Positions 3,894-64,000 of a DNA stretch of 64,000 bases are shown here, piece after piece (the first letter of the stretch is position 1; every line of letters starts with the position of its first letter). The notes beneath the pieces are model-generated. The model saw nothing but the letters and a program-made list of their open reading frames with translations. It was not told where the DNA came from and searched no databases. The translations under genes and the position numbers were made by a program. The stretch comes from Eledone cirrhosa. Taxonomy: Eukaryota. The DNA lies in the NCBI GenBank assembly GCA_964016885.1, contig OZ024742.1, positions 136,834,001-136,898,000 on the forward strand, read 5' to 3'.

Positions 3894-3902
3894 TGTATAT
3901 AT

Positions 3903-4019
3903 GAATTAACTATGGAGATATAAAAGATACAGAAGCGAAAACCAACCAAACAGTGAGTGTGTTCTGTTATTATTTCTGGCAATATTATTACAACAATATG
4001 AACCTCCCCAAGTATAACA

Positions 4020-4057
<38 letters not shown>

Positions 4058-4174
4058 TGTTATACTTGGGGAGGGTCATATTGTTGTAATAATATTGCCA
4101 GAAATAATAACAGAACACACTCTCTGTTTGGTTGGTTTTCGCTTCTGTATCTTTTATATCTCCATAGTTAATTC
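3903..4174. repeat. Tail-to-tail palindrome of a PLE terminal fragment centred on (TA)n
   Basis: Arms 3903-4020 and 4057-4174 are reverse complements with about 2 mismatches; centre is (TA)n; outer flanks are mirrored (TG)n and (CA)n. Same family as 14764-15160. Confidence 0.9.
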
Positions 4175-4192
4175 ATATATATATACACACAC

Positions 4193-4303
<111 letters not shown>

Positions 4304-4468
4304 AAACGAAGGAGGTGTGGTAAGGAACCAGATGGACAATAACGCACAAGAGTACTCTATACTTAGGGTAGTAGAGTGGGTAATAGGTAAAAGTTTAACC
4401 CCGACGGCAGAGCTCGAGCCGTTTCATCAAAACGGCTTCAGCTCTGCCGTCGGGGTTAAACTTTTTCC
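4304..4468 (-). mobile_element. Hairpin element family H1, copy 1 (PLE-type, in (TA)n)
   Basis: Tailed minus arm plus inverted tail-less arm ending ..tttttcc(TA)n; contains gaaacggct..gccgtcggggt. Confidence 0.85.
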
Positions 4469-5149
4469 TATATATATATATATATATATATATAAACAAC
4501 ATAATATATATATAAAGAACACATATATATATATGTGTGTGTCTGTGTGTGTGTGCGTGTGTGTGCATACGTGTGCACGTGCGTGTACAGGCACACAGAC
4601 GTACACATACATGTATATATTTATATGAGAGCTGGTAAATTTTTAACGGAAATGACAACCTTTTGCTTTCTGTTTCTTCATCCCTTTAAAAATTCAGTGT
4701 CTCTCCATCCTGGCATCTCAGTATGACGACATATAAACCATAATGGTTTATGTCGTGAAAAGTTTATTAAACTAAAGAGAAAATGAGATAAAAACTCTGT
4801 TACATAAATGACAACAAGGACTCGAGAATGAAATATAATAAGAGAAAATAACTGAAGAAGAAACAAATTATGCAGCAAAATAAATGGAAAAGGGAGGCGA
4901 TAGACTCTACACTCCATTCCTAGATTCTGCTAGCTCTTTTATATTGGGCACAACAGTCATTTTTATATGTATTCAAATACACCGTCGCTTCGACTCTATC
5001 AGAGACAACATTGGTTGTTCATCTAACTTCCTCATAGGTATGATTAGCTTTCTATTTAGGACAGGCACCTCAGCTTGAAGTCCACTATTACATTATTTTT
5101 CTTTGCTTTGTTTTCTTTCTTTCTTTTCTGTGCTATTTATTTTATAACA

Positions 5150-8962: not shown

Positions 8963-9839
<877 letters not shown>

Positions 9840-14328: not shown

Positions 14329-14330
<2 letters not shown>

Positions 14331-14511
14331 CGAAGGAAATGTGGTAAGGAACCAGGTGGACCATAACGCACCAAAGTACTCAATAGTTAGGGTAGTAGAG
14401 TGGGTAATAGGAACGAGTAGGACCCCGACGGCTGAGCTCAAGCCGTTTCATTTAGTCCAGAATTAGCCGTCGAAACGGCTTGAGCTCAGCCGTCGGGGTC
14501 CTACTCGTTCC
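14329..14511 (-). mobile_element. Hairpin element family H1, copy 2
   Basis: Tailed minus arm plus tail-less plus arm ending ctactcgttcc(TA)n. Confidence 0.9.
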
Positions 14512-14526
14512 TATATATATATATAT

Positions 14527-14743
14527 GAAGGCGAATGGCTGAGCGGTTAGAGAATTGGATTCGCAATCGTAAGGTTGTGAGTTCGATTCCTGGACCAGGT
14601 GATGCGTTATGTCCTTGAGCAAGACACTTTATTTCACGTTGCTCCTTCTACCTGGAGTTGCGACCGATAGATAGTATTAGCAATTGGAAAGACCAACGGA
14701 AACATTGTTCCCTCGGTCCGATTTGACGAAAGTCGATCGTTCC
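14527..14743 (+). mobile_element. SINE family B, full length, inside (TA)n
   Basis: A box TGGCTGAGCGG, B box GTTCGATTCC, gtccttgagcaagacactt CORE-like domain, ends tcgttcc(TA)n. Confidence 0.9.
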
Positions 14744-15238: not shown

Positions 15239-15444
15239 GAACGAAGGAGGTGTGGTAAGGAACCAGAAGGACCATAACGCGCCAGAGTACTCAATACTTA
15301 GGGTAGTAGAGTGGGTAATAGGAAAATGTTTGTCACCGACGGCAGAGCTCAGGCCGTTTCGACGGCTATTTCTGGACTTCAGAATAGCCGGGATCCAGAA
15401 ATAGCCGTTGAAACGGCTTGAGCTCTGCCGTCGGGGTCAAACAT

Positions 15445-15448
<4 letters not shown>
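15239..15448 (-). mobile_element. Hairpin element family H1, copy 3
   Basis: Same architecture as the other H1 copies; (TA)n flanks. Confidence 0.9.
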
Positions 15449-15485
<37 letters not shown>

Positions 15486-15487
<2 letters not shown>

Positions 15488-15700
15488 AATGATCGACTTT
15501 CGTCAAATCGGACTGAGGGAACAATATTTCCGTTGGTCTTTCCAATTGCTAATATAATCTATCGGTCGCAACTCCAGGTAGAAGGAGCAACGTGAAATAA
15601 AGTGTCTTGCTCAAGGACATAACGCATCACCTGGTCCAGGAATCGAACTCACAACCTTACGATTGCGAATCCAATTACCTAACCCCTCAGCCACACGCCT

Positions 15701-15702
<2 letters not shown>
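15486..15702 (-). mobile_element. SINE family B, full length, inside (TA)n
   Basis: Reverse complement of 14527-14743 at high identity. Confidence 0.9.
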
Positions 15703-20893: not shown

Positions 20894-21050
20894 TCATCTG
20901 AGGGGCATCGTACAAAAGAGCGGTTCTTCAAATTGTTGTTGAAGCTGTGCAATGGCATATTAACGTGCACAATTGTACTGCAGAAATGTGTCTAATGAAA
21001 TAGAGATGCAGTAGTTCATAAATATATTTCTGTGTGTATTTTCCGGTATT
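20894..21050 (+). mobile_element. PLE-type terminal fragment with decayed hammerhead-like fold; inverted partner at 24826-24969
   Basis: 20913-21050 is the reverse complement of 24826-24969; tcat-CTGAGGG..GAAA-tgtgtc-TA-atga. Confidence 0.65.
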
Positions 21051-21199
21051 TATATATATATATATATATATATGTAGGAGGTGAGTTTTATTGTAGTACA
21101 ATAAAGCAATGCAGATATCGGATAAGAAGCACTCTACAGTTTGTAGGACTGGAGTATACATAATATATAAGATCAAAAGATGGTTAAAAGAGTTCCATG

Positions 21200-21270
21200 T
21201 ATTTTATTATGCGCATTTCAAAAACAAATATCATCATGCACTAATATTTGTGTTTTCATCAGATAAAATA
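21200..21270 (-). ncRNA. Type I hammerhead ribozyme, canonical core
   Basis: tattttat-CTGATGA-aaacacaaatat..atatttgttttt-GAAA-tgcgca-TA-ataaaata; 8-bp stem I, palindromic stem III ATGCGCAT. Confidence 0.88.
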
Positions 21271-22169
21271 GGAAGACATGATATGAAGGTTAAAAAACAC
21301 TTGTGAATAGTGCAGTTTTAAATCAACATATGAAAAGTAGTTTTAGATTGATGTGTGATATTGGGAAAAAACATTTCTTTTGAGGGAGGGGGGGGGATGA
21401 AAAAGAGGAGGAGATGAGAGTAAAAAGTGGAGGGGGAGGAGTATAATGAGGAAGGATGAGATAGGAGGAGAGATGGGTGATAGAGAGAGAGAGATAGCTT
21501 TTATAACTGAGAAAAATATATTGTTTTACATAGAGAGGTTGAAAATCCGTTGGAAGATAATGTATAAATTAAAAGAATTTGAAAGTTAACGAAGAGAAAA
21601 TAATGTAAAGTTAAGGTTTGTATATTGAAGGGTTTAATAATATGTGCGATGAAAAGAAAATGTTAATATGTATTAAGAATAATATTTAAGGGTTTAATAA
21701 TATGTGCGATGGAAAGAAAATGTTGTTATGTATTATTAAAAAAAACAAAAGTAATGTAAGTAAGGATATATTGTGAGATGAGCATGAATAAGTTAGATGA
21801 AAGGGAGAAAAAAATAATGAATTGAGGATGAATAATCTAACGTCAAAAAAATGTGTTCATGTTTACGAAGGATTTTTTCAAGGTGATATAAGGTAAGAAT
21901 ATATTGTATTGTGTAATAATTGTTTCTATGTTAGGCACAGTGAGAAAAGGTACAGATTAGGGGTTAGAAATTAAAAGAAAAAGAAAAGAAAAGGAAAAGG
22001 AAGAAAGGGAAGTGATAAATAGGAGTGATATAGAATGAGTAACAAGTATTATATAATGTATAATAAATAACTTTGAAATAAGGTAGAAAGATGGGTATAT
22101 TTTTAAAGAAGTATATATATATATATGTGCCTTTGAGAAAAGAATTCTAAATTGATAAAGTATTGGATA

Positions 22170-24153
22170 TTAGCTGTATACTTTATGGAATGTTCTGTGG
22201 AATTTATGCAAGCAGAGAGAAAACAAGTCAGTGCGTCTATTTATTATAGAATCTAAATTAGATATAATGGTAAATTTTTCATTTAGACAGAGATTGCAAG
22301 TCTTGGATAGAGAACTGTTCAAGTATAAAGAAGCAGAAGAAACCTTTTTCCAAGAGATGTTATATTTAATATTTTTGTCTTTCAAGGACCATATGAGTTC
22401 TGAGAGAGCCGTGTTGGTTCTTTTAAGTTGGTATTTAAAAGACGAATGATGATTATAAAGACGAGCTTTAAAGGAGGTGGAAGTGGAGCCAAAATAGGTG
22501 AAGGAATTGGCGTCAGTTATAACTTTACATTCGTAGATTAAGTTTTTATCAATGGTTGTTGAGAGGACATTTATTTTTAACAGGGCAATTGCAATTGCGA
22601 TTAGAGAGATTATTAACGAGTGACCTAGTGTTATCTATAGAAGGAATTGGATTGGAGAAGTTATTTGCGATAGGAATAATAGTTTCTTGATTTAGAATGG
22701 GATTAAGAACATTTAGCGAAGTTGTGTTTGACGTTGTATTTGGGTTTGCAGAAATTAGCCTAGAGTTTACAATAACGTCGGGAGTACTATTACTATTATT
22801 ATGATATTCAGTGTTGGAAGGAAGAGATTTAGTATTTAGTATTTTATTTTTGTGTTTAGAGATAATGTTGGAAATGTTGGAGGATGTCGAATAGGAACAT
22901 TTTATAGTGTGTTTGTTAAATATTTTACTATAGATATGTGAGGGAGGGAAGCATTTATTTAAGGCACTAAAGAATAATTTAGGAATATTATTATTAATAG
23001 AGATGGAGAAAGGAGCATTATACCAGATTATGTTTTTGTATCTAGGTCTTTTATTAAAGTTATTGGAATGATCATGTTTAATTATTCTACTGTAAAATCT
23101 TCTAGAATTTGTTTCTTTACTATATTTGATTTTATCAGGATAGCCGGCTTTAGAAAGCGCGTTATTATAGTAATTGGCGTTAGCATCAAAGATATTTTTA
23201 TTAGAAGATAGGTTAGATATTCTTTTTCCAATATTACTAACTATAGCATTCTTAATATTAGTGGGGTGGTTAGATCTAAAACTAACATAATTTAGGTTCT
23301 CATTGTTTTTATGGTAAGGGTAATATAGGCCAGTGTCAAGATTAAGAGATACATCCAAGAAATTAGCTAGTTTGATGCTGTTATCAAATTCAATTTTTAA
23401 GTTATGTTGGTTAAAGAGATTACGTATATTGTTCTTAATAATATTAAGGTTAACTATGTTGCCATTTAAGATAGTAAAGAGTCCATCGTCACGATAAATT
23501 CCACCGCGAAGTTGAGGAATTTTCCGACTCAAAGAGTTCAAAATAAAGATACCAATTAAATCTGTCAATTGGGATGAATCGGATGCTCCCATTGTGATGT
23601 CGAAGATGTTAGAGGTATCAGCTCTGGTCCAATATTCATTGTTGAATTCTAGGATGGTTTTACGTGCGGTGAGAATGATATGAAGTTCATCTGTGCTGAT
23701 GTCAGAATATTTAAATGCGAAAGATAGAGCATTGTTGAGAAGTGAAGGCGAAATAGAAGAATAGTAGCTGGCAATATCAAATTGAACAAATTTTAGTTTG
23801 TTTTTATTATTCAATTTGTTGAACCAGTCAATCACTTCAGAAGTACCAAACCATAAATTTAAGTTCAAAGAAGAGCAATTAGAACGAACCTGTGGGATAA
23901 TTCTATCCAAGATGGCTTTACTAACAACCCCCAGATCTGATTTAGAGGGGGCGATTAATCTAACAGGTAGTTCAGTACGAACATTGTTTTTGTGATCCTT
24001 GAGATTTATCCTCGGAGTTCTTGGGAGGAATGGTTCGGTCTTTTTTCCGATGCCAAGTTTTGACATAATCTCAGAGGCTTCAAAGTTTATGGATTCTAAA
24101 TTATCATGGTTGGTTTTACGATATTTTTTCCTAACATTTTCTTTCCATCGCAC
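22170..24153 (-). pseudogene. PLE polyprotein: reverse transcriptase + Cys linker + GIY-YIG endonuclease; frameshift near 22550, N-terminus missing
   Basis: FDIASYYSSI, FDITMGASD, GIYRDDGL, NFLDVSL, SNHP, CNC..CPL; then KNLIYECKV..YFGSTSTSFKARLYNH..CNLCLNEK. Confidence 0.93.
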
Positions 24154-24469
24154 ATATTATTAAACCCTTAAATATTATTCTTAATACATATTAACATTTT
24201 CTTTCCATCGCACATATTATTAAACCATTAAATATTATTCTTAATACATATTAACATTTTCATTCCATCGCACATATTATTAAACCATTAAATATTATTC
24301 TTAATACATATTAACATTTTCTTTCCATCGCACATATTATTAAACCATTAAATATTATTCTTAATACATATTAACATTTTCTTTCCATCGCACATATTAT
24401 TAAACCATTAAATATTATTCTTAATACATATTAACATTTTCTTTTCATCGCACATATTATTAAACCCTT
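24132..24469 (+). repeat. 60-bp tandem repeat, about 5.6 copies
   Basis: Unit taacattttctttccatcgcacatattattaaacc(a/c)ttaaatattattcttaatacatat recurs every 60 nt. Confidence 0.95.
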
Positions 24470-24585
24470 CAATATACAAACCTTAACTTTACATTATTTT
24501 CTCTTCGTTAATTTTCAAATTCTTTTAATTTATACATTATCTTCCAACGGTTTTTCAACCTCTCTATGTAAAACAATATATTTTA

Positions 24586-24650
24586 TTTATCTGATGAAAA
24601 CACAAATATTATTGCATGATGATATTTGTTTTTGAAATGCGCATAATAAA
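24586..24650 (+). ncRNA. Type I hammerhead ribozyme in the inverted pLTR
   Basis: tttat-CTGATGA..GAAA-tgcgca-TA-ataaa; copy of 21200-21270. Confidence 0.85.
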
Positions 24651-24683
24651 ATACATGGAACTCTTTTAACCATCTTTTGATCT

Positions 24684-24767
<84 letters not shown>

Positions 24768-24775
24768 CGCTATTA

Positions 24776-24810
<35 letters not shown>

Positions 24811-24968
24811 TATATATGTATATATATTAATAGCGGAAAATACTCACAGAAATATATTTATGAACTACTGCATCTCTATTTCATTAGACACATTTCTGCA
24901 GTACAATTGTGCACGTTAATATGCCATTGCACAACAGCTTCAACAACAATTTGAAGAACCGCTCTTTT

Positions 24969-25017
<49 letters not shown>

Positions 25018-25932: not shown

Positions 25933-25936
<4 letters not shown>

Positions 25937-26251
25937 CGAGTATAACCCCGACGGCTGAGCTCAAGCCGTTTCGACGGCTAATTCTGGACTAAATGAACAT
26001 TTTTATCCTGGTAAATGAATAGCTGAGCTTCTCAGGGGGTAATGTTCCATATATGGTATATTACCCCCTGATAAGCTCGGCTATTCATTTACCAGGATAA
26101 ACATTTTCATTTAGTCCAGAATTAGCCGTCGAAACGGCTTGTGCTTAGCCGTCGGTGTCCTACTCTTTCCTATTACCTACTCTACTACCCTAAGTATTGA
26201 GTACTTTGGTGCGTTATGGTACATCTGGTTCCTTACCACATTTCCTTCGTT
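25933..26251 (+). mobile_element. Hairpin element family H1, longest copy (4); both arms retain a whole hammerhead fold
   Basis: Arms about 25936-26043 and 26060-26166, tail to 26251, (TA)n flanks. Confidence 0.9.
25945..26040 (-). ncRNA. Type I hammerhead-like RNA with non-canonical core and long stem II (plus-strand twin 26063-26158)
   Basis: acccc-CTGAGAA-gctcagcta..tagccgtc-GAAA-cggct tgagctc agccg-TC-ggggt; the twin has CTGATAA. Confidence 0.7.
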
Positions 26252-27994: not shown

Positions 27995-28176
27995 AAGAAA
28001 ATGTGGTAAGGAACCAGGTGGACCATAACGCACCAAAGTACTCAATACTTAGGGTAGTAGAGTGGGTAATAGGAACGAGTAGGACCCCGACGGCTGAGTT
28101 CAAGCCGTTTCGACGGCTAATCCCGAATTAGCCGTCGAAACGGCTTGAGCTCAGCCGTCGGGGTCCTACACGTTCC
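27995..28176 (-). mobile_element. Hairpin element family H1, copy 5, with 14-bp flanking direct repeat
   Basis: tatataatattatg at 27981-27994 and 28177-28190. Confidence 0.88.
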
Positions 28177-28499
28177 TATATAATATTATGTATATATGTA
28201 GTCTAATAGTAGCGAGGTTATAGGAAATATATTCACAATCATTTCGATTTCTCACAATTCTCATTCAATGAGATATGGTTTGACCGTATAAGCGAGCGAG
28301 CCTGTGTCAGAGTGTTAACAAAATATATATTTATAATGGGGCGGTCACACAATTATCCCGGAACTTGAGGTTTCTGCAAGTGTGGAGTGCATCGACAAGT
28401 ACAATTTACAATTTGCCGACCACAGTGGCAGCATCGTGCATGTAGGCCAGCCACTAATAAATTCTATATACCCGCATTTCCATTTCGTAAACTTCTTCT

Positions 28500-29169: not shown

Positions 29170-29326
29170 AACAAAGAACGTGTGGTAAGAAACCAGGTGG
29201 ACCATAACGTCCAGAGTACTCTATACTTAGAGTAGTAGAGTTGGTAATAGGAAATATTCGGGACCGCTACGGCTGAGCTCCGGCCGTTTCGAAACGACTG
29301 GAGCTCAACCACGGGATCCTCACTCT

Positions 29327-29330
<4 letters not shown>
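29170..29330 (-). mobile_element. Hairpin element family H1, copy 6 (diverged)
   Basis: tgtggtaagaaaccaggtggaccataacg tail; centre gtttcgaaac. Confidence 0.85.
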
Positions 29331-38752: not shown

Positions 38753-38798
38753 CGTCGAAACGGCTCGAACTCTGCCGTCGGGGTCTTGAACATTTTCC
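38753..38798 (+). mobile_element. Family H1 tail-less arm fragment (copy 7)
   Basis: cgtcgaaacggctcgaactctgccgtcggggtc..ttttcc(TA). Confidence 0.8.
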
Positions 38799-38825: not shown

Positions 38826-39025
38826 CCGTCAAATCGGACCGAGGAAATAATGTTTTCCATTGATTTTTTCCAATTGCTAATACTATCTGTCAGTCACAAA
38901 TCCAGGCAGAAGGAGCGACGTGAAATAAAGTGTCTTGCTCAAGGACATAACGCACCGCCCGGTCTAGGAATCGAAATCACAAACTCACAATTGTGAATCC
39001 AGTTCTCTCAGGCACGCACCTTCAC
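38826..39025 (-). mobile_element. SINE family B (older copy)
   Basis: cgtcaaatcggaccgagg tail plus CORE-like domain. Confidence 0.85.
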
Positions 39026-39108: not shown

Positions 39109-39645
39109 AATATGGATAGGTAACTATTTAAATTATATTTTTTTTATTTATTTTGAAAGACTGTTTGAATTTTGCTTGTCCCGCTTATCTCATTTTTATA
39201 GTTCTGGTATGTCAAATTAATACCATCGAACAACAACAGTATCATAGACACCCTATATATTTCCGAGGGTACTCATTTTCTGTATATCCTCCCATGTGTA
39301 GAGAAAAAATCCGTCGTTTACCTAGCTGCTATTTTTAGTGGTGTGGCAGACAACACGTCTATGCTCCTACTCCCGCTTCTACTAACGACCAGTTCACGTT
39401 TACGGCCCCATTCGATCCTGCACTAGCTGGCTAAAGGCAATATATTTGCTGGCTGTGACTTTATGTCTAATGCAAGGGAAAATGCTTTCTGAAGAGCCGA
39501 ACTTTCTGTTGGAAGTCCCTTGGATTTCCAATCTTTTGTGAGGCGAAACCGTCGGTAAAAGCAATATGGATAGGTAAATATATAAATTATACTTTTTGAA
39601 TTTATTTTGGAAGATTGTTTGAATTATGCTTGTCCCGCTTATCTC

Positions 39646-39705
<60 letters not shown>

Positions 39706-39838
39706 GAGATAAGCGGGACAAGCATAATTCAAACAATCTTCCAAAATAAATTCAAAAAGTATAATTTATATATTTACCTATCCATATTGCTTTTACCGAC
39801 GGTTTCGCCTCACAAAAGATTGGAAATCCAAGGGACTT

Positions 39839-39840
<2 letters not shown>
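39109..39840 (+). mobile_element. PLE-type terminal family: tailed copy 39109-39252, hammerhead copy 39261-39648, inverted copy 39703-39840
   Basis: Shared tatggataggtaa..tgcttgtcccgcttatctcattt; 39511-39648 and 39703-39840 are reverse complements around (TA)n. Confidence 0.85.
39483..39563 (+). ncRNA. Type I hammerhead ribozyme, canonical core, extended stem II
   Basis: tgcttt-CTGAAGA-gcc..ttggaa..ttccaa..ggc-GAAA-cc gtc gg-TA-aaagca; predicted cleavage after GUA at 39557. Confidence 0.9.
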
Positions 39841-39920
<80 letters not shown>

Positions 39921-41084: not shown

Positions 41085-41513
41085 TGAAACAAAATGAAAA
41101 CGAAATTTCATTTCTCACTCTTAGTATGGCACTTACTTAAATGTAAGTATGCATGTATACGTACATACATATATGTATACAGACGTACAGTAGCATGCAT
41201 ATATATATATATATATATACATATATACATACATATGCATACAGGTACACATACATATATGCACGTATCAGTTTAGCGGCGCTTATTGTAACGTCGCTTT
41301 GTTCGTTTGTAAACAAACTGAACAGCCTGAATGTATGCCATACGGTGTTAAGGCAACCACGTCACCTTTTTGTTCAACACTTTTGCCTTAACACCGTATG
41401 GCATAAATTCAGGCTGTTCAGTTTGTTTACAAACGAACAAAGCGACGTTACAATAAGCGCCGCTAAACTGATACGTGCATATATGTATGTGTACCTGTAT
41501 GCATATGTATGTA

Positions 41514-41737: not shown

Positions 41738-41803
41738 TATTTTATTATATATATTTCAAGCGCAACCAAGACAACATTGGTACGCTTTCATCAGATAAAA
41801 TAC
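41738..41803 (-). ncRNA. Type I hammerhead ribozyme
   Basis: tattttat-CTGATGA-aagcg..cgctt-GAAA-tatata-TA-ataaaata. Confidence 0.85.
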
Positions 41804-41896
41804 AAAGTTTGTTTTATAAATAGAGACACACCCATGAAAAACATACCTTATCGATATGATTTTCATGGGTATGTCTCTAATTATAAAACAAACTTT

Positions 41897-41963
41897 GTAT
41901 TTTATCTGATGAAAGCGTATCAATGTTGTGTTGGTTGCCCTTGAAATATATATAATAAAATAC
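41897..41963 (+). ncRNA. Type I hammerhead ribozyme (twin arm)
   Basis: gtattttat-CTGATGA-aagcg..ccctt-GAAA-tatata-TA-ataaaatac; 9-bp stem I. Confidence 0.82.
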
Positions 41964-50269: not shown

Positions 50270-51020
50270 GTGATGTTGCTGTTCCACTCATATTTTCTAT
50301 TTAATTTGGTTTTAATTCTTTTATGCTTACTGCCTCTGTAATTTGCCTAAACATTGCGTCTTTCTTGTGTGTGGATTCTATTTTTATTTCTATGCTCTCT
50401 AATTTACCCCTGTGTTCTATCTTAGCATGTTGGTAGAGCACAGATGATTCTTTACTATCTTGGAGGTCTCGCCAGTGTTCATTTATTCGTTCCCCTATAC
50501 TACGAGCTGTCTCACCTATGTACACTACATTTTTGTTTCTACATTGTCCTTCAGTACATCTTATGCTATATACTACATTTCTAGTTTTACAGTTAATATG
50601 GGAGCTTATTTTACAGGTTATGCATTTCTTATCTATACATGAGGGTCTTTGGAACGGGTATGTCTTGCTAATAAGTGTTTTTACGGAGGTACCAGGTCTT
50701 TCTACTATCTTAATATTGAGATTATGTTTCTTTAGGGCCCTTCTAAATTTGTAGGCTAGTTCGCCTCTAGGGGTTGTATTGATGAACATTACACTCTGGT
50801 ATTTATTGCTATCATACCATGAGTTTATTCTATTGGCCTTGTTCTTAGTTCTTTCTATTCTATTCCAAAATTTGCTCCTATACAAGGGGCAGGTCCCATT
50901 TATGTCATTATTTACCATTTTTTCCCATTTGGTTCTGGCTCCTTTATACACTCTGATTCTATCTCTCTGATTGTAGCCAGAGAACTGCATACGGTGGATG
51001 AAGTGTTGTATGTGTCTCTC
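50270..51020 (-). pseudogene. PLE linker + GIY-YIG endonuclease, 5'-truncated
   Basis: MQFSGY..PLYR..W..C.DKKCITC..C..RNVVYSIRC..YIGETARSIGERINEH..H..H..RQITEAVSI; frameshifted NRKYEWN end. Confidence 0.9.
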
Positions 51021-52726
51021 TAGAAATATTTACTGATACGAAACTGTTTAAGCTTCACCATTTAGTCCACTGTTTCAACATTTCTTATTTATTATAATGT
51101 AGTCTAGTTGCACTTTCAATCGGTATTCGTTTCGTTTATTGAAGATTCAGGCTTATTAGTGCACATTCTGTTGCAAGATCGATTAAGTGTCGAGCGATTA
51201 GATATGTTTCTTGACGAAGAGAAAAATATTTTGAATCTGTGTGTCCAATTTTAGCGTTAGAATCAATCACCCGCACTTATGAACATTGTTACAATAGTAG
51301 ATATATATACAGCACGTGCCCTTAAAATGCCAGACGCAAGTTTTTTCTGTTTCAAAGATCACGTATTTGTTTTATCGTATCTGAAATAGCTGATCGTTTA
51401 GAAATTTATACACAAGTGTTAATTGTATGTGTGTTTAAAGATTAGACAGGAAACTCCTACAAATATCCTCCTCTTCCAATATTTCTATATTTCATCTACC
51501 TGACACCTACCCTGTGGATTGTCTCTCTTTTGACCACTGGCCGCTGGTCTCTGAGACATATTTGCTCATCGCTGTCTTAGCTGTTTTAACGGCTGTTCTA
51601 GCGATGAATATTTTCATTTGTATATGTACAAATGATATTGTTCTCATTCTCATTGGACAGCTTATTGGACCATTTATATGGATGTATGAAACAATAATTT
51701 ATATTAAATTCAATTCCGCATCCACATATGTGGCCTTATTGCTTGATATCTTCTTTTTCGACATTCTGTTGACAAAGAACGAGAGGGCGAGTGAGAGATA
51801 TGAGAAAAAGAAAGAATGAGAGATATGGAGTGCACGAGGTAGACAGGATAAGAAAAGGATGACGAGAAAGAGGTTGATAAAGAAAAATGATGATTGATAT
51901 AGACATAGAGATAGATAGTTAAATAGATAGATAGATAGATAGATAGATAGAGAGATAGAGAGAGAGGGAGAGAGAGATAGAGAAAGACATAAAGAAAGAG
52001 ATGGAGATAATGCGTAATAGAATATAAGAGTGAAAATATTAGAAGAGGCGGATAAGGGATGAAGTGGAGACGAGAAAAGCGATAGGTCCATACAGGTTCA
52101 CATTAAGCACATAAACACATCTAATCGCCAATGAGGTACAAATGAGAGTGGGAAAGAGAGTAAAGAAAGAGTCACAGAGTAAAAGAACGAGACAAAAGAT
52201 GTATTGAGACTTAAAAAAAGAGAGATACAATATCTGACGTGCGGAAGATTTTGCAACGCTACATTTGTAAGTGGGTGTAAGTGTATGTGTACTTGTGGAT
52301 AAATTTAAAAGCATATACATAAATATATATATTATTTAAACATACCCATATACACCCACACATACACACACACACACATTTATATATGTATATAATAGTT
52401 GTGTGTATACGAGTATAAATGTATGTATGTTCGTCTAGGTTCATAATTTTATAAAGTTTTACCAATAGAGCGAGAGTCGCTTCGTAAGACAAACAGAAGA
52501 CATTTTCATTGGAATGTAGACACCATCGACTAGGTATGCATTTCTGCATACATGCATCTGTATGCAGGTATGGATATTATTATATGTGTGGATGTGGATG
52601 TTTTGTGTTATATATGTGTATGTGCACATGTTTTGTATCCGTACATGTGCACATGGAGTTATTATATGCCGAATGTTTGGAATGTTTTACATATTTTTAC
52701 AGTTCCATTAATAAATTGTACTTGTA

Positions 52727-56883: not shown

Positions 56884-56885
<2 letters not shown>

Positions 56886-57082
56886 AAAAGAGTCAGGACC
56901 CCGATGGCTGAGCTCCGGCCGTTTCGACAGCTAGATCCGAAGGCTCGGAGCTAGCTGTCGAAACGGCCGGATATCAGTCATCTGGGTCCTGACTCTTTTC
57001 AAAATAACCCACTCTACTGCCCTAAGTATCGAGTACTCTGGTGCGTTATGGTCCACCTGGTTTCTTACCACACTCTCTTTTT
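56884..57082 (+). mobile_element. Hairpin element family H1, copy 8
   Basis: Tail-less inverted arm then tailed arm; (TA)n flanks. Confidence 0.88.
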
Positions 57083-57178: not shown

Positions 57179-59652
57179 GAATGCCATGGTTGACGGAGGC
57201 TCGGCTCTGTAAGTTATAGTAATTTTTAACCGTTATAACAATTGTAAATTATTTAAAACTTGAACCAAATTGTAGATAAAAACACCCTCCTCCTCGTGAG
57301 AGGGGTCTTTCTGCCCGTTATTTGGCCCTTCGGTGGTAAATAACCGCTTATTGGGGTTTTGTGCCCAATATTCATTTTAAACCAAAAAAAAACATGGCTA
57401 CAAAAAATAATTTTCACGAGTCACTCCCACTCATTCCGTCTCCTTCTTCCTCAATCGTCACTACATCAGAGAGAAGATTGTCTCTCTCCCTCCCTTCTCT
57501 AAATGTGGTGTCGCATCTTTCGCAAGCGACGCCATTAAAGAAAAAGAAAAATATAGTTTCTGGTAGATTTCACCAAGAGAACGTGCATTGCGTGGAACAT
57601 TTCTCCACGACGACGACAACGACGAACAATGTGTGCGGTAAATACGGAAAGCCATTTCATTCGTCTGACGTCATGAAGAATAGCAGCAACAGCCGTATTA
57701 ACAGCAGCAGCAGCAGCAGCAGCAAGAGTGACAAGGAAAACACTAGTAGCAGCTGCAACAACATCAGCAGCAGCATAAACAACAACAGCAGCAGCAACAG
57801 CAACAACAACAGCAGCAGCAGCAATAACAACAACAACCACAGCAACAGCGGCGGCGGCGGTCGTAGTACCAGCAGCAACAACAAAAGTAACAGCAGCTCT
57901 GACGAGAACAACAACAACAACAACAAGAAAGAAAAACCAATCTCGTTTGCAGGCATCGCAAAGAACCTGGAAACCATCCTTATAACAAATGAGGAATTAC
58001 ATGAAGCAAAGAAGATGGTGACGAAAGCCGGACACCGAGCAATCTGCAAGGCAGCCGAAAGATTTTTCGAAACCCAACAGCACTGTACGGTCACGTACCG
58101 TACAGTAAGCACAAAATCCCGTAGGGTTGAAAGAGCCACAGAGGCTCAAATACAAAAAGCCTTAGGGTCTGTGTGGCAGCGGAAAACGCATATCACCCGA
58201 GGCAAGAAATATGCCACCGTGGACGTGCTTTTTGCCACACCCCAGGAGGCAAAGGCTCAATCCTTAGTGACCCTAAGGAGCGAGGAAATGGTGTTGGTGC
58301 CATCCAACTGCGGGCAAAAAATTGTGAGAGTCAAACTGAACCACGCCCCCAAGAGATGGCCCTTTCTTGGCTGGCCGCGTCTGTCCTCGTCGGAATCGCG
58401 GACAAAACAACTGCACTGCAAGTACAGAAAAAAGTACGAGAAGATTGGTAGGCACGTCCGTTGAGATGTTAATTTAAACCAACCAGGATTGCATCGAAGC
58501 TATCCCGGATGTGATAGACTTCGATAACGGCACTCAACTGCCCATAAGTGCTGAGGGCAAACGCTCGAAATGCTTTTGCTCTGGGTCGAAGACTCACCTC
58601 AGCGCCTTCTGTAATGAGAAGAACCTGAGAAAGGAGAAAACCCCCTTCCTTCCGATACCGGCTCCACTGCTACCAGCAACAGCACAGGCGGCAAGGAGGA
58701 AGGATAAGTCCGTGGCACCTATACCCACGCTACGGAAATCAAGAACATCAGCAGCAGTGGAAGTATTAACAACAACAACTGTAATACCAACTGCAGCTGC
58801 AACAGAGACTCCACTGCAACCATCACCAACAAGAACAAGTGAAAGAGTGGAGCTGGTATCCGTCCCCGACCTCACAGAATCGGACATGGAGTGTGAGGTG
58901 GGAGAGGGATGGCAAAAAATTGCAAGAAAGCACAAACGCAGAAGCAGCGCATCGTCGCCTTCGAAAAGAGAGGGAAGAAATGAAAAAAGAGACTTACATC
59001 AGCAACACCACCAACACCATCACCACACACACTAGCACCACCATCACCACCGGCGACAACCCTACCGCCAACAACAACAACACCTTCACCACAAGCACAA
59101 ACATCGCAAACACAACAACAAAACACACACACCCAGCAACAACGGCAAGAAAATAGCGGAACCACAGTCCACCCCCAGAAAAAGAAATGCACAGCAATAA
59201 ATACACACAACAAGAAACTACTTACATAATTGAACACACAGACATTTCACAGCATGACTACATAATACCAGCACCAATCAAAACACCAACGAACATAAGA
59301 CTGGTAAGAATAGAACAGAAACAATACACAAACATTAAAACGAAATTCCCCAACGCAGTTGGTGATTTCAGAGACCTAGGAGGTACACTAAACCGGAGAG
59401 TATATTCGGATATACTCACAGAAGAGCCGACGACCAGCCGAGGGGACGATTGAACGGTCCCTTCACCAGACGATCAAGTGGAAAGGGATGGAGAAACCAT
59501 CCTGCCTCTACGAGAAGTAAGGTAAGTGGTCTTTCCCATCTTTTTCACTCCATTTCAACATGACCTCACTCAGAATAAGCAGCATAAATGCGCGTTGCTT
59601 GGGGTCGTAATGGATAGAGGGCCACCTGCTCAATGACCTCAGGTCACTAAAC
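57179..59652 (+). mobile_element. L1/Tx1-clade LINE, 5' unit: 5' UTR, disrupted ORF1, first about 90 nt of ORF2
   Basis: ORF1 57361-59035 with Ser/Asn tract, ISFAGI, zinc-knuckle remnant KCFCSGSKTHLSAFC and GWQKI; 59270-59652 duplicates 60360-60700. Confidence 0.8.
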
Positions 59653-60103
59653 TTGCAGACTTTCATTTCCCGCCAATATGAATGACTGCAGGTGTTGAAG
59701 CCGCCACCCTCACCACCACCACAGCGACAACAGAAACAAAATAAAAAAATAAATTATCTCGTGACATCGAAATTTATTCATCCTGAATCAACTCTTCCAC
59801 ACCGAACACCACTGACGCCAAAAAAGAAAAAAATCCTCTTCCTTCCCCCTCCAAAATCAAAATACAGAGGGAAACAAATAAACTATCAAACAAAAAAGTT
59901 AGGACAGCTATGCCACCATCCACACCAACATCACCAACCCCATCACCACAAACACCAACACCATCACCATCATTAACCCCAACACCACCATCACCAACAC
60001 CACAAAAGTCACCAAAAAGCGAAACAGAAACAAACCCACAACAAACGCAAACAAAACAAAACAACCAAAACGATACACACTACACAGCATTAAATTTGAA
60101 CAA

Positions 60104-60290
60104 GGGCAGTGGATTGGCAGTATCGGTAGAGGGTCGGACGCCATGCGTTGACGCATAGAGTTACGGCCCTTTCTATTCTGAGTTCAAATCCCGCCGAGGT
60201 CAACTTTGCCTTTCATCCTTACGGGGTCGATAAAATAAAGTACCAGTAATGTACTGGGTTATTGCTGACCTTGTGCCAAAAGTAGAAACA
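60104..60290 (+). mobile_element. Young SINE family A insertion with 15-bp TSD
   Basis: attaaatttgaacaa at 60089-60103 and 60291-60305; intact A and B boxes. Confidence 0.95.
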
Positions 60291-60606
60291 ATTAAATTTG
60301 AACAACAACCAATTATTACACTACATCCAACACAACACCAGCATCACAAAAAAGACTACACAATAACCCCAAAGTTCACACCAGCTCCACACATACAAAT
60401 CACTCGCATCACACAGAAAACGTACACGACACTGAAACAAAAATTCCCCAAAGACATCGGAGACTTCCGACAAACACTCTCTAGGAGGATTTATACGGAT
60501 ATCCTTCCGGAGGAGGTCACAAGCAGTGAAAAGGATGGACAAACCATCCTTCCTCTAGGAGAAGTAAGGTAAGTGGTCTTTCCCATCTTTTCCACTCTAT
60601 TTCAAC

Positions 60607-63600
60607 ATGACCTCACTCAGAATAGGCAGCATAAATGCGCGTGGCTTGGGGACGTCATGGAAGCAGGGCCACCTGCTCAACGACCTCAGGTCATTAAACA
60701 TAGATGTAGTGGCCATCAGCGAAACCAGAATCTCTGAAGCACAGGCCTTCGCACCGTTCTTCGGCGGCTACGATGTGTACCTATCTCCCAGCCCTCCGGG
60801 ATCGGGGGGAGGAATTGCTGTGCTTTTTCGGAGAGGTTTGGATCTCGCCATACGGTCCATCTTCCGGGACCCAGAAGGTAAGTTGGTGGTGCTGGACGTG
60901 ACCAGCGGAGACGGGCAAGCTTTCAGGCTGGTGGCCGTCTATGCCCCGACAGGAGCAGGGCGGCCTGATTACTTCCGGCGTCTGGAGACCTTTCTTGGAA
61001 CGTCCCGCTCTTTAGTGTTAGTGGCGAGTAGAACGGGATCTCAGATGCACGCTGGGACTGTGTGGGATTAGCGGATAGGGGAGGAGGGTGCAAGAGCCTC
61101 ACCAACCTGCTCAGGCGTTTTGAACTGTCTGACAGGTATCGATTGGATTTTCCGAATGTGCCAATGTGGACTTGGACAAATCGTATAGGGTCATCCAGAT
61201 CATATCTAGATAGAGTATTTTGTAGGGAAATAGATAAGTCTAGCATAGGCTGTCCACAATTCAAGATAGTCAGCTACACGGACCACAAATTCGTGATCTG
61301 TGTGCTTGACTTAGATAAGCTTCATAGACGAGGACCTGGCTACTGGAAGCTAAACGCGTTATTACCAGCGACCGGATTAGCGAAAGGCCTACAGAAACCG
61401 GATTATCGAACTAGTTAAGCGGGTGTTGACGGGGTCCATCGTCAACAACAAGTGGTGGTTTGCTCTGAAAAGAGCGATTAGAATAGACTCCATTAGGTTT
61501 AGTATGGCTTTAGCAATAGAGAAAAATAGAGCAGAGGGAGAACTAGTTAGAAAATTAGACGAGGCGCTTAGCAAAGGCATCGCGACCGACGTACTTGCTG
61601 CGAAATTGGCCCTTGACCAATTCTTCAATGCAAAGCACGAAGGCTGCGATGTCAGAGCTAGGGTGCGTGCTCTCAGACACGAGGGGACGAAAGCCGTTCA
61701 ATGGGCCCGAGTGGCGGAGGCGCGTCGTGGCAACAAAGCCACGATCTGGTCTTTGGTGGACCACGACGGGCGCATGCTACTCGATCCCGGGCAAATGTGT
61801 GAAGCTTTTCAGAGACATTTCGCACAGCTGTTCGGGGGCAGCAGCGGGCCGGATAGAGGGATGGACTTTAGTGTCTACCTCGACGGACTGCCGCGGCTTT
61901 CGGCCACTGAGGCGGAGTGTTGCGAAAAGCCGATAACAGCCGCTGAAGTACGGGAGGCAATGGGTGGCTGCACAAGGGATAAAACGCCGGGTTTGGATGG
62001 TCTGCCCTATGAACTTTACGTACAGATGCCAGACTTGTTCGGAGGCCTCTTGGCGGACGTCTACTGCAACTGGCAACAGAACGGGAGAATTCCCAGCTCT
62101 GTGAGCCGAGGAGCTGTGGCGCTGCTGAGAAAGGATCCGAACAAGGGGGATAACATAGATAATTTCAGGCACATAACTCTGCTAAACACAGAGTTCAAGA
62201 TTTTGGCCAAGGTGCTAGAAAAGAGGTTGCCGCTTGTCGTTGGTGGTCTGGTGGGAGCGGCGCAGACGTGCGCCATTCCCGACAGATCCATCCACGACAA
62301 CCTCCACCTCATGCGATACATCATAGAGAGGGTAGCTAGGGAACCTGGCACGCGTGGTTCCTTTATCAATTTAGATCAGTCGAAAGCTTTCGATAAGGTC
62401 GACCATCTTTACCTAGCGGCAGTCCTGAGGGCGGCTGGCTTTGGGCCGGCCTTCAGAGCTGTATCGCTGCCATGCACAGCGACATATGCTCTGTGGTGAG
62501 AGTGAACGGTCACCTTTCGGAACCGTTCAACATCATGCGCTCGGTCCGCCAAGGATGTCCCCTCCCGTCCCTCTTGTACGTATGGACTCTCGAGCCATTA
62601 CTGCACAAACTGGAGACGTTGAGGGGGGTCCCGCGCGAACTAGGATGCGGAAGATCCGTGTCAGCATATGCGGATGATGTCACCGTAGTGGTGTCGAACG
62701 CCAAAGACATCGAGGCGAACCGCACTACACTAAGAGAATACGAAGCGGTGACAGGAGCAATGATCAACCAGGAAAAGTCAGTGGGCTTGCAGCTCGGCAC
62801 CTGGAGAGTCAGGTCCATGCCGTCCAACAGCGTCGTCGGGCGCTGGACGGACGGGCCGTTAAATTGCTAGGGGTCTGGTTCGGTCCGGACCTCCAGACGG
62901 ACAAAAACTGGGACGAGGTAACGAGCAGGGTGGCTTCTCTCACTATCCCTGAAAGGTCAGCGGAGGTGGCTAACGCGTACATCGCGTCCGTCATCTACTA
63001 CCGCCTGACCGTCGTACCTTGTCCTAAGCCCCGCATGACTGCGCTGGAGAGTTTGCTCTTTCGCTTTTTGTGGAAGGGACGCGCTCCGATGGTCAGGCGG
63101 TCCATCTGCTGTCAACACCCGCTACGTGGAAGGCTGGGCATGCCGTGGCTGATGATGCGCAGACACGCGCTCAGGCTACGACATCTCCACTTCTTCCTCG
63201 ACGGTGATCAGGTGTGGTCGCCGTTTACTAGACACGTCTTGCCCCAGCTCCTCTCCTTTACAGAGCTGCTGTCCTGGGTCAAGCGAAGACCGAGAGGGAG
63301 CGCTTGGAGACTGGAATGTCTTCAGGCGCTCACAGCCCTCGGGCAATGTGATCGGTGGAAACTCCACCTTGGCGTTCTAAAGAGGATTTGTGGAGGGAAA
63401 GAGCGACGACGTACTTGGAGAAACTCTAGGCGTCGACGAAAAATCAACTAGCCAATCTCTTCGGAAGGACTTTCGGGCCGGGGCCTATGGACAACTTCCA
63501 GAAATCCTTGGCCTGGCAGTGCTACCGAGGAGCTTTGCCAGTTCGGGATAAACTCTACAGGCATGGAGGTGCCGTCAGCCTGGCATGTCCGAGATGCGCA

Positions 63601-63999
63601 CAGGGCGACGAAACCGTCCTGCACGCACTCGTCCAGTGTCCGAGCATTGCTGACTTGTGGGTTTATGTCGAACACCTGCTGTCACGTGTAGGACGGATCC
63701 GGCTATCAGCTGAGTACATCGTGAGGATTGCTCCGCCCTCTTACTTTAGCCGGGAAGAGCAGGCAGTTTTTATCTCTCTGGTGGCCATGGCAAAAGAGAT
63801 AGTATGGTGGACACGTTTGAAAGGGCTGAAGACGAGCACTTACCTCTTCGGTGATGCCCTGATTAACTTTTTCAAATTTCATTTGAAAAGGAAAATCAGG
63901 GTAGAGGAAGTGCTCTCTTCCCAGCATTTTGTTGAAAGATGGGTGAGAGAAGCAAGTATGGCCCGTGTGAATGGGCCTACTCTGAGTATGTGTCTGTAA
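60607..63999 (+). pseudogene. L1/Tx1 ORF2: APE endonuclease + reverse transcriptase + C-terminal zinc finger, with several frameshifts
   Basis: SINARGL, ISET, VYAP, SYLDRVF, TDH; KTPGLDGL, LDQSKAFDKV, SVRQGCPL, AYADDV; CPRC..ETVLHALVQC. Confidence 0.93.
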
Positions 64000-64000
64000 T

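What the first reader, a model, noticed from the sequence alone, without database searches (positions are those of the whole stretch)
25933..26251. Family H1: eight copies of a hammerhead element with a non-canonical core and a self-complementary stem III loop
Seen: copies at 4304, 14329, 15239, 25933, 27995, 29170, 38753 and 56884. The longest shows stem I acccc/ggggt, a stem II with about 40 nt inserted, GAAA, stem III cggct/agccg with a loop containing palindromic GAGCTC, and a GUC site. Both arms read CTGAGAA or CTGATAA rather than CTGAnGA, so either G8 is lost or position 7 is deleted. Seven of the eight tail-less arms stop at the same point (..TCC or ..TTC before TA), matching the internal TCC|TATTA that begins the tail. 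No coding partner is in the window. Inference: a high-copy family with a variant catalytic core that may cleave as a dimer.
Basis: partly seen in the sequence, partly recalled or inferred. Interest (0 to 1): 0.72.

Follow-up and report, generated by a model that had tools for sequence, protein, structure and literature searches.

The report
Penelope retroelement ends with decaying hammerhead
These eight mirror-image repeats are short ends of a very abundant Penelope-type jumping gene. Its hammerhead motif has a known U-A core pair, and one lineage kept spreading after that pair became mismatched; where the copies begin likely records both the RNA's start and the predicted self-cut, which gives a way to test whether these elements need their ribozyme.

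Summary
All eight copies are real, but only the one at 25933 holds the 5' hammerhead core; the other seven start inside the motif. They are ends of a Hydra-type Penelope-like element (PLE). Longer genomic copies run into a 720-aa RT + GIY-YIG ORF, intact in 3.5-kb tandem arrays. Position 7 is not deleted: core counts are U3-A8 5,729, C3·A8 1,780 and G8 95. U3-A8 is a published variant. C3·A8 is a derived, mismatched lineage whose ORF stayed under purifying selection (shared pN/pS 0.12). Copy 5' ends pile up at two points: mostly inside loop II (inferred transcription start), and a minority at the predicted cleavage site (2.1% of tails in one U3 lineage, 0.31% in C3). The U3 sister of C3 is equally low (2 of 692), so the decline came before the mismatch; predicted misfolding fits this. 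Dimer cleavage is not required by the structure and could not repair a 3-8 mismatch. The scan had already noted the mid-motif start, the mismatch and the paired ends on other DNA of this genome. The cleavage-site footprint is in none of the notes I saw. No RNA data. New variant of a known kind.

The parts
25933..26251 (.). Longest window copy: head-to-head fold-back of two PLE ends in (TA)n; C3·A8 lineage
   Evidence: (arms 89.5% identical)
26047..26251 (+). Tail-bearing arm (end of 3' UTR, hammerhead, tail)
   Evidence: 95% identical to L031 3' end over 207 nt
25933..26056 (-). Inverted tail-less arm; core CTGAGAA at 26035-26029
26047..26056 (.). 10-bp palindrome of the element's own 3' UTR at the fold-back centre (likely joining microhomology)
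   Evidence: sequence; same motif in long copies; role inferred
26063..26074 (+). Stem I 5' strand (26063-26067) and core C3 U4 G5 A6 N7 A8 A9 (26068-26074)
   Evidence: register fixed by variable N7 across lineages
26113..26114 (+). Main 5' end of genomic copies, inside loop II; inferred transcription start
26131..26158 (+). GAAA (26131-26134), stem III with loop, GUC, predicted cleavage after 26153, stem I 3' strand (26154-26158, one private change)
   Evidence: second pile-up of copy ends at the equivalent of 26154
26171..26251 (+). 81-nt tail between the two fixed 3' end points; in full-length elements it runs on into the 5' leader of the ORF
4304..4469 (.). Short fold-back copy, no 5' core
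14329..14512 (.). Short fold-back copy with C3-type tail, no 5' core
   Evidence: tail type
15239..15450 (.). Short fold-back copy, no 5' core
27995..28177 (.). Short fold-back copy, no 5' core
29170..29330 (.). Short diverged fold-back copy, no 5' core
38753..38797 (+). Lone tail-less arm; loop III GAACTC (not palindromic)
56884..57080 (.). Short fold-back copy of a diverged subfamily, no 5' core

Best explanation
H1 copies are the hammerhead-and-tail ends of an autonomous Hydra-type Penelope-like retrotransposon, set in (TA)n and mostly paired head to head, and they were likely made when the element's enzyme primed twice, at two fixed RNA sites, and ran off an RNA 5' end that likely lies at a transcription start inside loop II or, less often, at the predicted ribozyme cut. 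Shown: link to the RT + GIY-YIG ORF; two fixed 3' ends paired one of each; two pile-ups of 5' ends; a U3-A8 core in most copies, with a derived C3·A8 lineage that kept a selected ORF. Inferred: that the loop II pile-up is a transcription start, that the second pile-up is self-cleavage, that the two arms come from two priming events, and that the ribozyme of the window's lineage is weakened (first by a rival hairpin that hides GAAA, then by U3 to C) and is not essential for spread.
For: ORF link: long copies run through a 1.1-1.2 kb UTR into GIY-YIG and RT; intact ORFs in 3,542-bp tandem arrays and in L169, L172, L175, L178; 720 aa from the first ATG. Paired ends: in 1.2 Mb of evenly spaced sequence, 23 fold-back pairs, 20 with one end at each site, 3 with one arm unclassified, 0 with two alike. 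Loop II start: 30,859 arms match from that point but only 9,070 six bases further upstream; 44 of 70 non-edge arms start within a 20-nt span around it; about 19 of 31 distinct (TA)n-flanked places begin at those two bases and none reach more than about 4 nt above them (hand count); 13 of 16 template-jump junctions land within 4 nt of it. Cleavage site: 227 mini-hairpins turn at or within a few bases of it; among the first 100 of 667 short hairpins, U3-type tails give 46 there against 16 at the stronger 8-bp palindrome, C-type tails 8 against 20 (hand count; p=6e-5). Core: counts; with positions 3 and 8 masked, C3 needs 2 changes on a 73-row tree and forms a ladder nested in U3 lineages; among 14 C3-linked copies shared changes give pN/pS 0.12 and private ones 0.45, p=2e-6. 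Folding: median probability of the rival hairpin 0.83 in 48 C3 copies, 0.60 in 8 copies of the U3 sister, 0.24 in 5 young U3 copies, 0.02 in 14 older U3 copies.
Against: No RNA run, so no start, cut or expression is seen directly. The cleavage footprint does not track position 3: the U3 sister has 2 of 692 (0.29%), the same as C3 (17 of 5,534) and below the U3 TTG lineage (47 of 2,251; p=5e-4). It could therefore follow tail sequence rather than ribozyme activity. The cut site lies at the foot of stem III and on a CG palindrome, so RT stalling or 2-nt microhomology could add to the peak. A residual peak remains in C3. In the random sample only 2 of 70 arms start there. Three U3 copies with the TGG tail also fold poorly (0.75) although that tail type is rich in cut-site ends. 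Lineage labels of short copies rest on tail letters seen in the copies. The loop II ends are spread over several bases. Pfam gave no hit for the ORF, and clade placement rests on motifs read by eye, with no RT tree.
Confidence: 0.7

Rival explanations
1. One reading: a high-copy hammerhead element with a functional new core (G8 lost or position 7 deleted) that cleaves as a dimer through the GAGCUC loop.
For: C3·A8 is fixed in 1,780 core matches. The loop palindrome is kept in most lineages and a self-dimer is predicted favourable. 17 C3-type hairpins turn at the cut site. Dimer cleavage is proposed for metazoan PLE hammerheads (PMC4209133).
Against: N7 is present and free and U3 is the majority state. 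Single C3G or G8C changes abolish cleavage in a PLE hammerhead (PMC11167929; C3·A8 itself was not tested there). Stem III is stable as a monomer. Some copies lack the palindrome. Cut-site ends are about 7-fold rarer in C3.
Confidence: 0.12
2. Both 5' pile-ups are reverse-transcriptase stops at RNA structure (foot of stem III; stem II and the rival hairpin) on uncut read-through RNA, not true RNA ends; the hammerhead is inactive in all lineages.
For: The peaks lie beside predicted helices. The footprint fails to follow position 3. In vitro the uncut RNA is the main template of a PLE (PMC11167929).
Against: The main peak lies in the loop, after the enzyme has passed stem III and the stem II 3' strand. 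Template jumps land there in 13 of 16 cases. TTG and C3 lineages share stem III yet differ 7-fold at the cut site. Many junctions have both arms ending at the first base after the cut, with a single extra A or T.
Confidence: 0.18
3. The inverted arm is made by one cDNA folding back on itself, and the short end is cut by the endonuclease at the internal TA-rich site; there is no second priming.
For: Both 3' end points sit at TA-rich motifs like the target. Several centres coincide with internal palindromes. Craig 2021 attributes the tail to endonuclease resolution.
Against: Frangieh 2024 maps two RT start sites that bound the tail, on both cut strands. Lone short-end and lone long-end arms both occur (6 and 11). 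Many centres hold extra bases between two arms that end at the same point.
Confidence: 0.2

Closest known systems
Hydra clade of C-terminal-EN Penelope-like elements (Craig et al. 2021, PMC8557442; passages, section 11, supplement parts and finds read), including Hydra-1_Obim
   Same: Single RT + C-terminal GIY-YIG ORF with RW[K/R], DKT, CxCx5C, CxxC and CxH motifs and no CCHH; (TA)n targets; partial tandems, inverted 5'-truncated copy, one-sided tail; hammerhead in the pLTR.
   Different: All 26 Hydra rows of File S2 have a canonical CUGAnGA core, loop II of 3-10 nt and stem III of 3-4 bp. Here the core is U3-A8 or C3·A8, loop II is about 40 nt and stem III is 5-6 bp. Unit 3.5 kb (Hydra usually under 3 kb); tail 81 nt (usually 30-40). 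Hydra-1_Obim is a different family (2,507 bp, canonical core).
U3-A8 minimal hammerheads of Cercyon PLEs in Schistosoma mansoni (Cervera and De la Pena 2014, PMC4209133; parts 1-2 of 4 read)
   Same: U3-A8 covariation in a PLE hammerhead; type I fold; G10.1-C11.1 kept.
   Different: Those lack a stable helix III and need dimers. This one has a long helix III, a long loop II and a mismatched derived lineage.
Poseidon PLE of Anolis (Frangieh et al. 2024, PMC11167929; parts 1-2 of 4 read)
   Same: Two RT start sites bounding the tail, downstream of the hammerhead; AT-rich targets; hammerhead not needed for insertion in vitro.
   Different: Different clade. That study found no RNA reads starting at the cut site, whereas here genomic copies pile up there. 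Here the tail lies upstream of the first ATG.
Animal non-LTR retrozymes (bioRxiv 10.64898/2026.07.22.740005; part 1 of 5 read)
   Same: Short PLE-derived hammerhead repeats.
   Different: Retrozymes are tandem units each with a full hammerhead. H1 copies are dispersed head-to-head half motifs; the one short tandem seen (L092) lacks the core.

Membership tests
EN+ Penelope-like element | Single ORF with RT and C-terminal GIY-YIG | tested here: met
   Intact ORFs with YRDDG and VIY...YIG motifs; close resemblance by eye to Hydra alignments; Pfam silent
EN+ Penelope-like element | pLTR-ORF-pLTR or tandem arrangement | tested here: met
   L031, L169, L170, L172, L177, L178; arrays L162-L164
EN+ Penelope-like element | Inverted 5'-truncated copy and one-sided tail | tested here: met
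   20 of 23 pairs with one end of each kind; tail is 81 nt, longer than the published 30-40
Hydra clade | RWK-like, DKT, CxCx5C, CxxC, CxH motifs; no CCHH | tested here: met
   RWR, SDKTG, CNCPDRSIC, CNLCSEE, CKH read by eye, against the list
Hydra clade | Insertion into (TA)n | tested here: met
   Most arm 3' flanks are (TA)n
Hydra clade | Placement in the Hydra clade of an RT tree | not tested
   Reference proteins were seen only as paper text; no tree built
Hydra clade | Canonical hammerhead core (reported as universal in the clade) | tested here: not met
   G8 in 95 of 7,604 core matches. Filed therefore as Hydra-type on protein motifs, with a variant ribozyme
Type I hammerhead ribozyme | Three stems around the core with G12 A13 A14 and NUH | tested here: met
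   Stems formable in all lineages folded; lowest-energy fold in the young lineage only. No formal covariation test
Type I hammerhead ribozyme | Watson-Crick pair between positions 3 and 8 | tested here: not met
   Not met for the window copy and its lineage (C3·A8, 1,780); met for 5,729 U3-A8 matches
Type I hammerhead ribozyme | Self-cleavage | not testable with these tools
   Only an indirect genomic footprint
Dimer-dependent minimal PLE hammerhead | Absent or 1-2 bp helix III with palindromic loop | tested here: not met
   Helix III is 5-6 bp, predicted -4.9 to -7.8 kcal/mol alone
Non-LTR retrozyme | Tandem units each with a complete hammerhead | tested here: not met
   Short copies are dispersed and lack the core

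The most novel reading that the evidence does not exclude
The genome holds a lineage-by-lineage fossil record of a PLE ribozyme at work and in decline. Transcription starts inside loop II, so only the 3' hammerhead is whole. Its cut leaves an RNA with a 41-nt terminal repeat, across which the short first cDNA would jump, as in retroviral strand transfer. The roughly 125,000 short copies are failed jumps. One autonomous lineage lost the fold, then the 3-8 pair, and kept transposing.
Probability: 0.25. Interest if true: 0.78.

Novelty: new variant of a known kind. Interest (0 to 1): 0.52.

Why it matters
What PLE hammerheads do and how PLEs make their pseudo-LTRs are open questions (PMC8557442 calls the role unclear; PMC11167929 found cleavage dispensable in vitro and saw no RNA reads at the cut). 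This family offers a young intact element, natural U3-A8 and C3·A8 versions, and countable genomic ends at both the inferred start and the predicted cut. That makes 'does the ribozyme cut in vivo, and is it needed' directly testable. The element class, the insertion shape and the U3-A8 pair are already published.

Tried and rejected
Rfam scan: only low-complexity miRNA-like matches among the 150 shown. Pfam: no hit for the family ORF (two pieces) or the window RT; a weak GIY-YIG hit only for 50304-51029. Run search: no RNA holder listed, so no reads were laid; this is no evidence on expression. Position-7 deletion: rejected. Canonical ancestor inside this family: rejected. Window ORF 22170-24156 as the partner: rejected, 42% protein identity and no nucleotide match to the long copies; my simple canonical-hammerhead scan of the window gave one weak unrelated hit. 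The idea that the cleavage footprint switches off with U3 to C: not supported, the U3 sister is equally low. Lunse et al. on PLE hammerhead variants could not be read; I saw only its title in a reference list, and it may already cover C3·A8-like cores. Searches for prior reports found none of a cut-site footprint or strand transfer in PLEs, within this library only. Sequence look-up in earlier scan notes was empty. No protein homolog search, structure prediction or formal covariation test was run.

Full report
Observation. The eight copies are at the stated places. Seven are head-to-head fold-backs in (TA)n with one arm carrying an 81-nt tail; the copy at 38753 is a lone tail-less arm. Only the copy at 25933 reaches the 5' core, and each of its arms has private lesions. 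The other seven begin in loop II or further 3'. The genome is 3.0 Gb in 1,796 contigs; the host is not identified here. In 120 evenly spaced 10-kb stretches I found 73 arms in 50 insertions, which scales to about 125,000 insertions (Poisson range 93,000-165,000). The stretches were mostly from the largest contigs.

What it belongs to. Longer copies run 5' through a 1.1-1.2 kb untranslated region into a GIY-YIG and RT reading frame. L031 shows pLTR-ORF-pLTR with one stop. Intact frames occur in 3,542-bp tandem arrays (L162, L163) and in L169, L172, L175 and L178; the frame is 720 aa from the first ATG. The protein has the motifs that Craig et al. 2021 list for the Hydra clade (PMC8557442 section 11), read by eye; I built no RT tree, and Pfam gave no hit. 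The same paper describes the inverted 5'-truncated copy, the one-sided tail and (TA)n targeting, so the insertion shape is published. The PLE frame inside the window (22170-24156, minus) is another family.

The core. Exact pattern counts over the genome give U3-A8 5,729, C3·A8 1,780 and any base at 3 with G8 95. These count arms, not insertions. Position 7 takes G, A, C or T, which fixes the register: nothing is deleted. U3-A8 is the covariant core reported for Schistosoma PLEs (PMC4209133). None of the 26 Hydra rows in Craig's File S2 has it. A tree of 73 of 123 core-bearing copies (those with element-derived upstream sequence), built with positions 3 and 8 masked, needs two changes for C3 against U3 and shows C3 as a ladder of well-supported steps nested among U3 lineages, midpoint-rooted. 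The C3 rows were enriched by my choice of searches, and some rows are two arms of one insertion. Among 14 C3-linked copies, codon changes shared by two or more copies give pN/pS 0.12 and private ones 0.45. So source elements with the mismatch kept a working protein while they spread. Single changes at 3 or 8 abolish cleavage of another PLE hammerhead without stopping insertion in vitro (PMC11167929); C3·A8 itself was not tested there.

Folding. The stem II 3' strand and stem III 5' strand are complementary around GAAA, so a rival hairpin can hide the catalytic purines. Its median predicted probability is 0.83 in 48 C3 copies, 0.60 in 8 copies of the U3 sister lineage, 0.24 in 5 young U3 copies, 0.52 in 4 and 0.75 in 3 other U3 copies, and 0.02 in 14 older U3 copies. 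The hammerhead is the lowest-energy fold in the young lineage, and has probability 0.001 or less in L031 and both window arms. These are secondary-structure predictions without tertiary contacts or protein. A self-dimer through the loop palindrome is predicted favourable, but stem III is stable alone and some copies lack the palindrome.

3' ends. Arms end at two fixed points, before the tail or after it. Of 23 fold-back pairs in the sample, 20 have one of each, 3 have one arm unclassified, none has two alike (only opposite-strand arms within 60 nt were paired). In full-length copies the tail continues into the ORF leader. This matches the two RT start sites mapped for the Anolis PLE, so two priming events are the likely origin; fold-back of one cDNA plus endonuclease trimming is the rival.

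5' ends, main peak. 30,859 arms match 23 bases starting at the equivalent of window 26113, but only 9,070 match six more bases upstream; some of that drop is ordinary divergence and subfamily letters outside my pattern. In the sample, 44 of 70 non-edge arms (3 edge arms dropped) start within a 20-nt span around that point. Of about 31 distinct (TA)n-flanked places listed, about 19 start at those two bases (hand count; three are tandem units of one locus). Where a piece of the ORF's 5' part (64-856 nt) is followed by a jump back into the pLTR, 13 of 16 junctions land within 4 nt of the site (two are repeats in one locus). The site reads TTAGT or TCAGT, like an initiator; that consensus is recalled, not tested. 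D. virilis Penelope has an internal promoter with an initiator (PMC2377424, passages). I infer a transcription start inside loop II, which would leave the 5' copy of the ribozyme without its core.

5' ends, second peak. Mini-hairpins whose arms turn at or close to the first base after the predicted cut number 227 with full tail. With a gap wide enough to show other centres (667 matches, first 100 read by hand), U3-type tails gave 46 at the cut site (plus one duplicate), 16 at the 8-bp loop palindrome and 7 elsewhere; C-type tails gave 8, 20 and 2. Exact counts with at most 2 bases between arms: 47 of 2,251 tails in the U3 TTG lineage (about 41 after likely segmental duplicates), 17 of 5,534 in C3 and 2 of 692 in the U3 sister. 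The simplest reading is that the ribozyme does cut in vivo in some lineages. Against a clean story, the sister lineage with an intact U3-A8 pair is as low as C3, so the loss preceded the mismatch. Predicted misfolding in the sister fits this, but an effect of tail sequence, RT stalling at stem III, or CG microhomology is not excluded, and a residual peak remains in C3.

Mechanism committed to. Transcript starts in loop II (inferred). The element's protein nicks (TA)n and primes at two sites about 57 and 139 nt from that start (inferred from paired ends and PMC11167929). Most cDNAs run off the RNA 5' end and join head to head, giving the short fold-backs (inferred). A minority come from RNA cut by the hammerhead (inferred). 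The window's lineage carries a weakened ribozyme and spread anyway (spread shown, weakness inferred). The bolder extension, a 41-nt terminal repeat used for strand transfer, is untested; my searches found no paper on it, within this library only.

Relation to earlier notes and papers. The scan's notes already hold the paired ends (e1-8668198) and the mid-motif start with a mismatched core (e1-9570153) on other DNA of this genome. My notebook shows those readings before the look-ups (the paired-end count, ran in the same turn); they are not independent support. Papers: PMC8557442 passages, section 11, supplement finds and part 2 of 59; PMC4209133 and PMC11167929 parts 1-2 of 4; the retrozyme preprint part 1 of 5 (its supplements are closed); PMC2377424 and PMC6765202 passages. 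Lunse et al. was not available and may bear on the novelty of C3·A8.

Verdict. Real, a variant of a known kind; interest 0.52.

Noticed in passing
window 20913-24969: A second Hydra-type PLE family: RT frame 22549-24156 and GIY-YIG frame 22170-22634 on the minus strand, with an inverted copy of its 3' end at 24132-24969 and 60-bp internal repeats; 42% identical in RT to the H1 parent. Its 3' end reads CTGATGA ... GAAA with a long spacer.
   Followed up: partly
window 50301-51029 (-): GIY-YIG fragment of a third PLE-like family, weak Pfam PF01541 hit.
   Followed up: partly
window 57340-64000 (+): Broken non-LTR retrotransposon with endonuclease-like and RT-like frames; related copies lie in L031 and L035.
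   Followed up: no
window 8963-9169, 14527-14743, 15486-15702, 38827-39025: A roughly 215-bp repeat with a tRNA-like head (by eye) sits right beside three H1 copies, across a short TA run or nearby.
   Followed up: no
window 39510-39841, 41261-41478, 41757-41943, 3901-4176: Other fold-back palindromes unrelated to H1 by BLAST.
   Followed up: no
L163:7172-9977: At the 5' end of a tandem array of the element, a 55-bp internal ORF piece is repeated about 50 times, running to the end of the fetched stretch; suggests repeated copying of a tiny template.
   Followed up: no
L092:1285-2008: Three head-to-tail 257-bp units, each from the loop II start through the tail into the ORF start, preceded by an inverted short arm.
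   Followed up: partly
L120, L121 (around 1490): Two copies with similar flanks begin exactly after the tail, directly at (TA)n, with no upstream pLTR.
   Followed up: no
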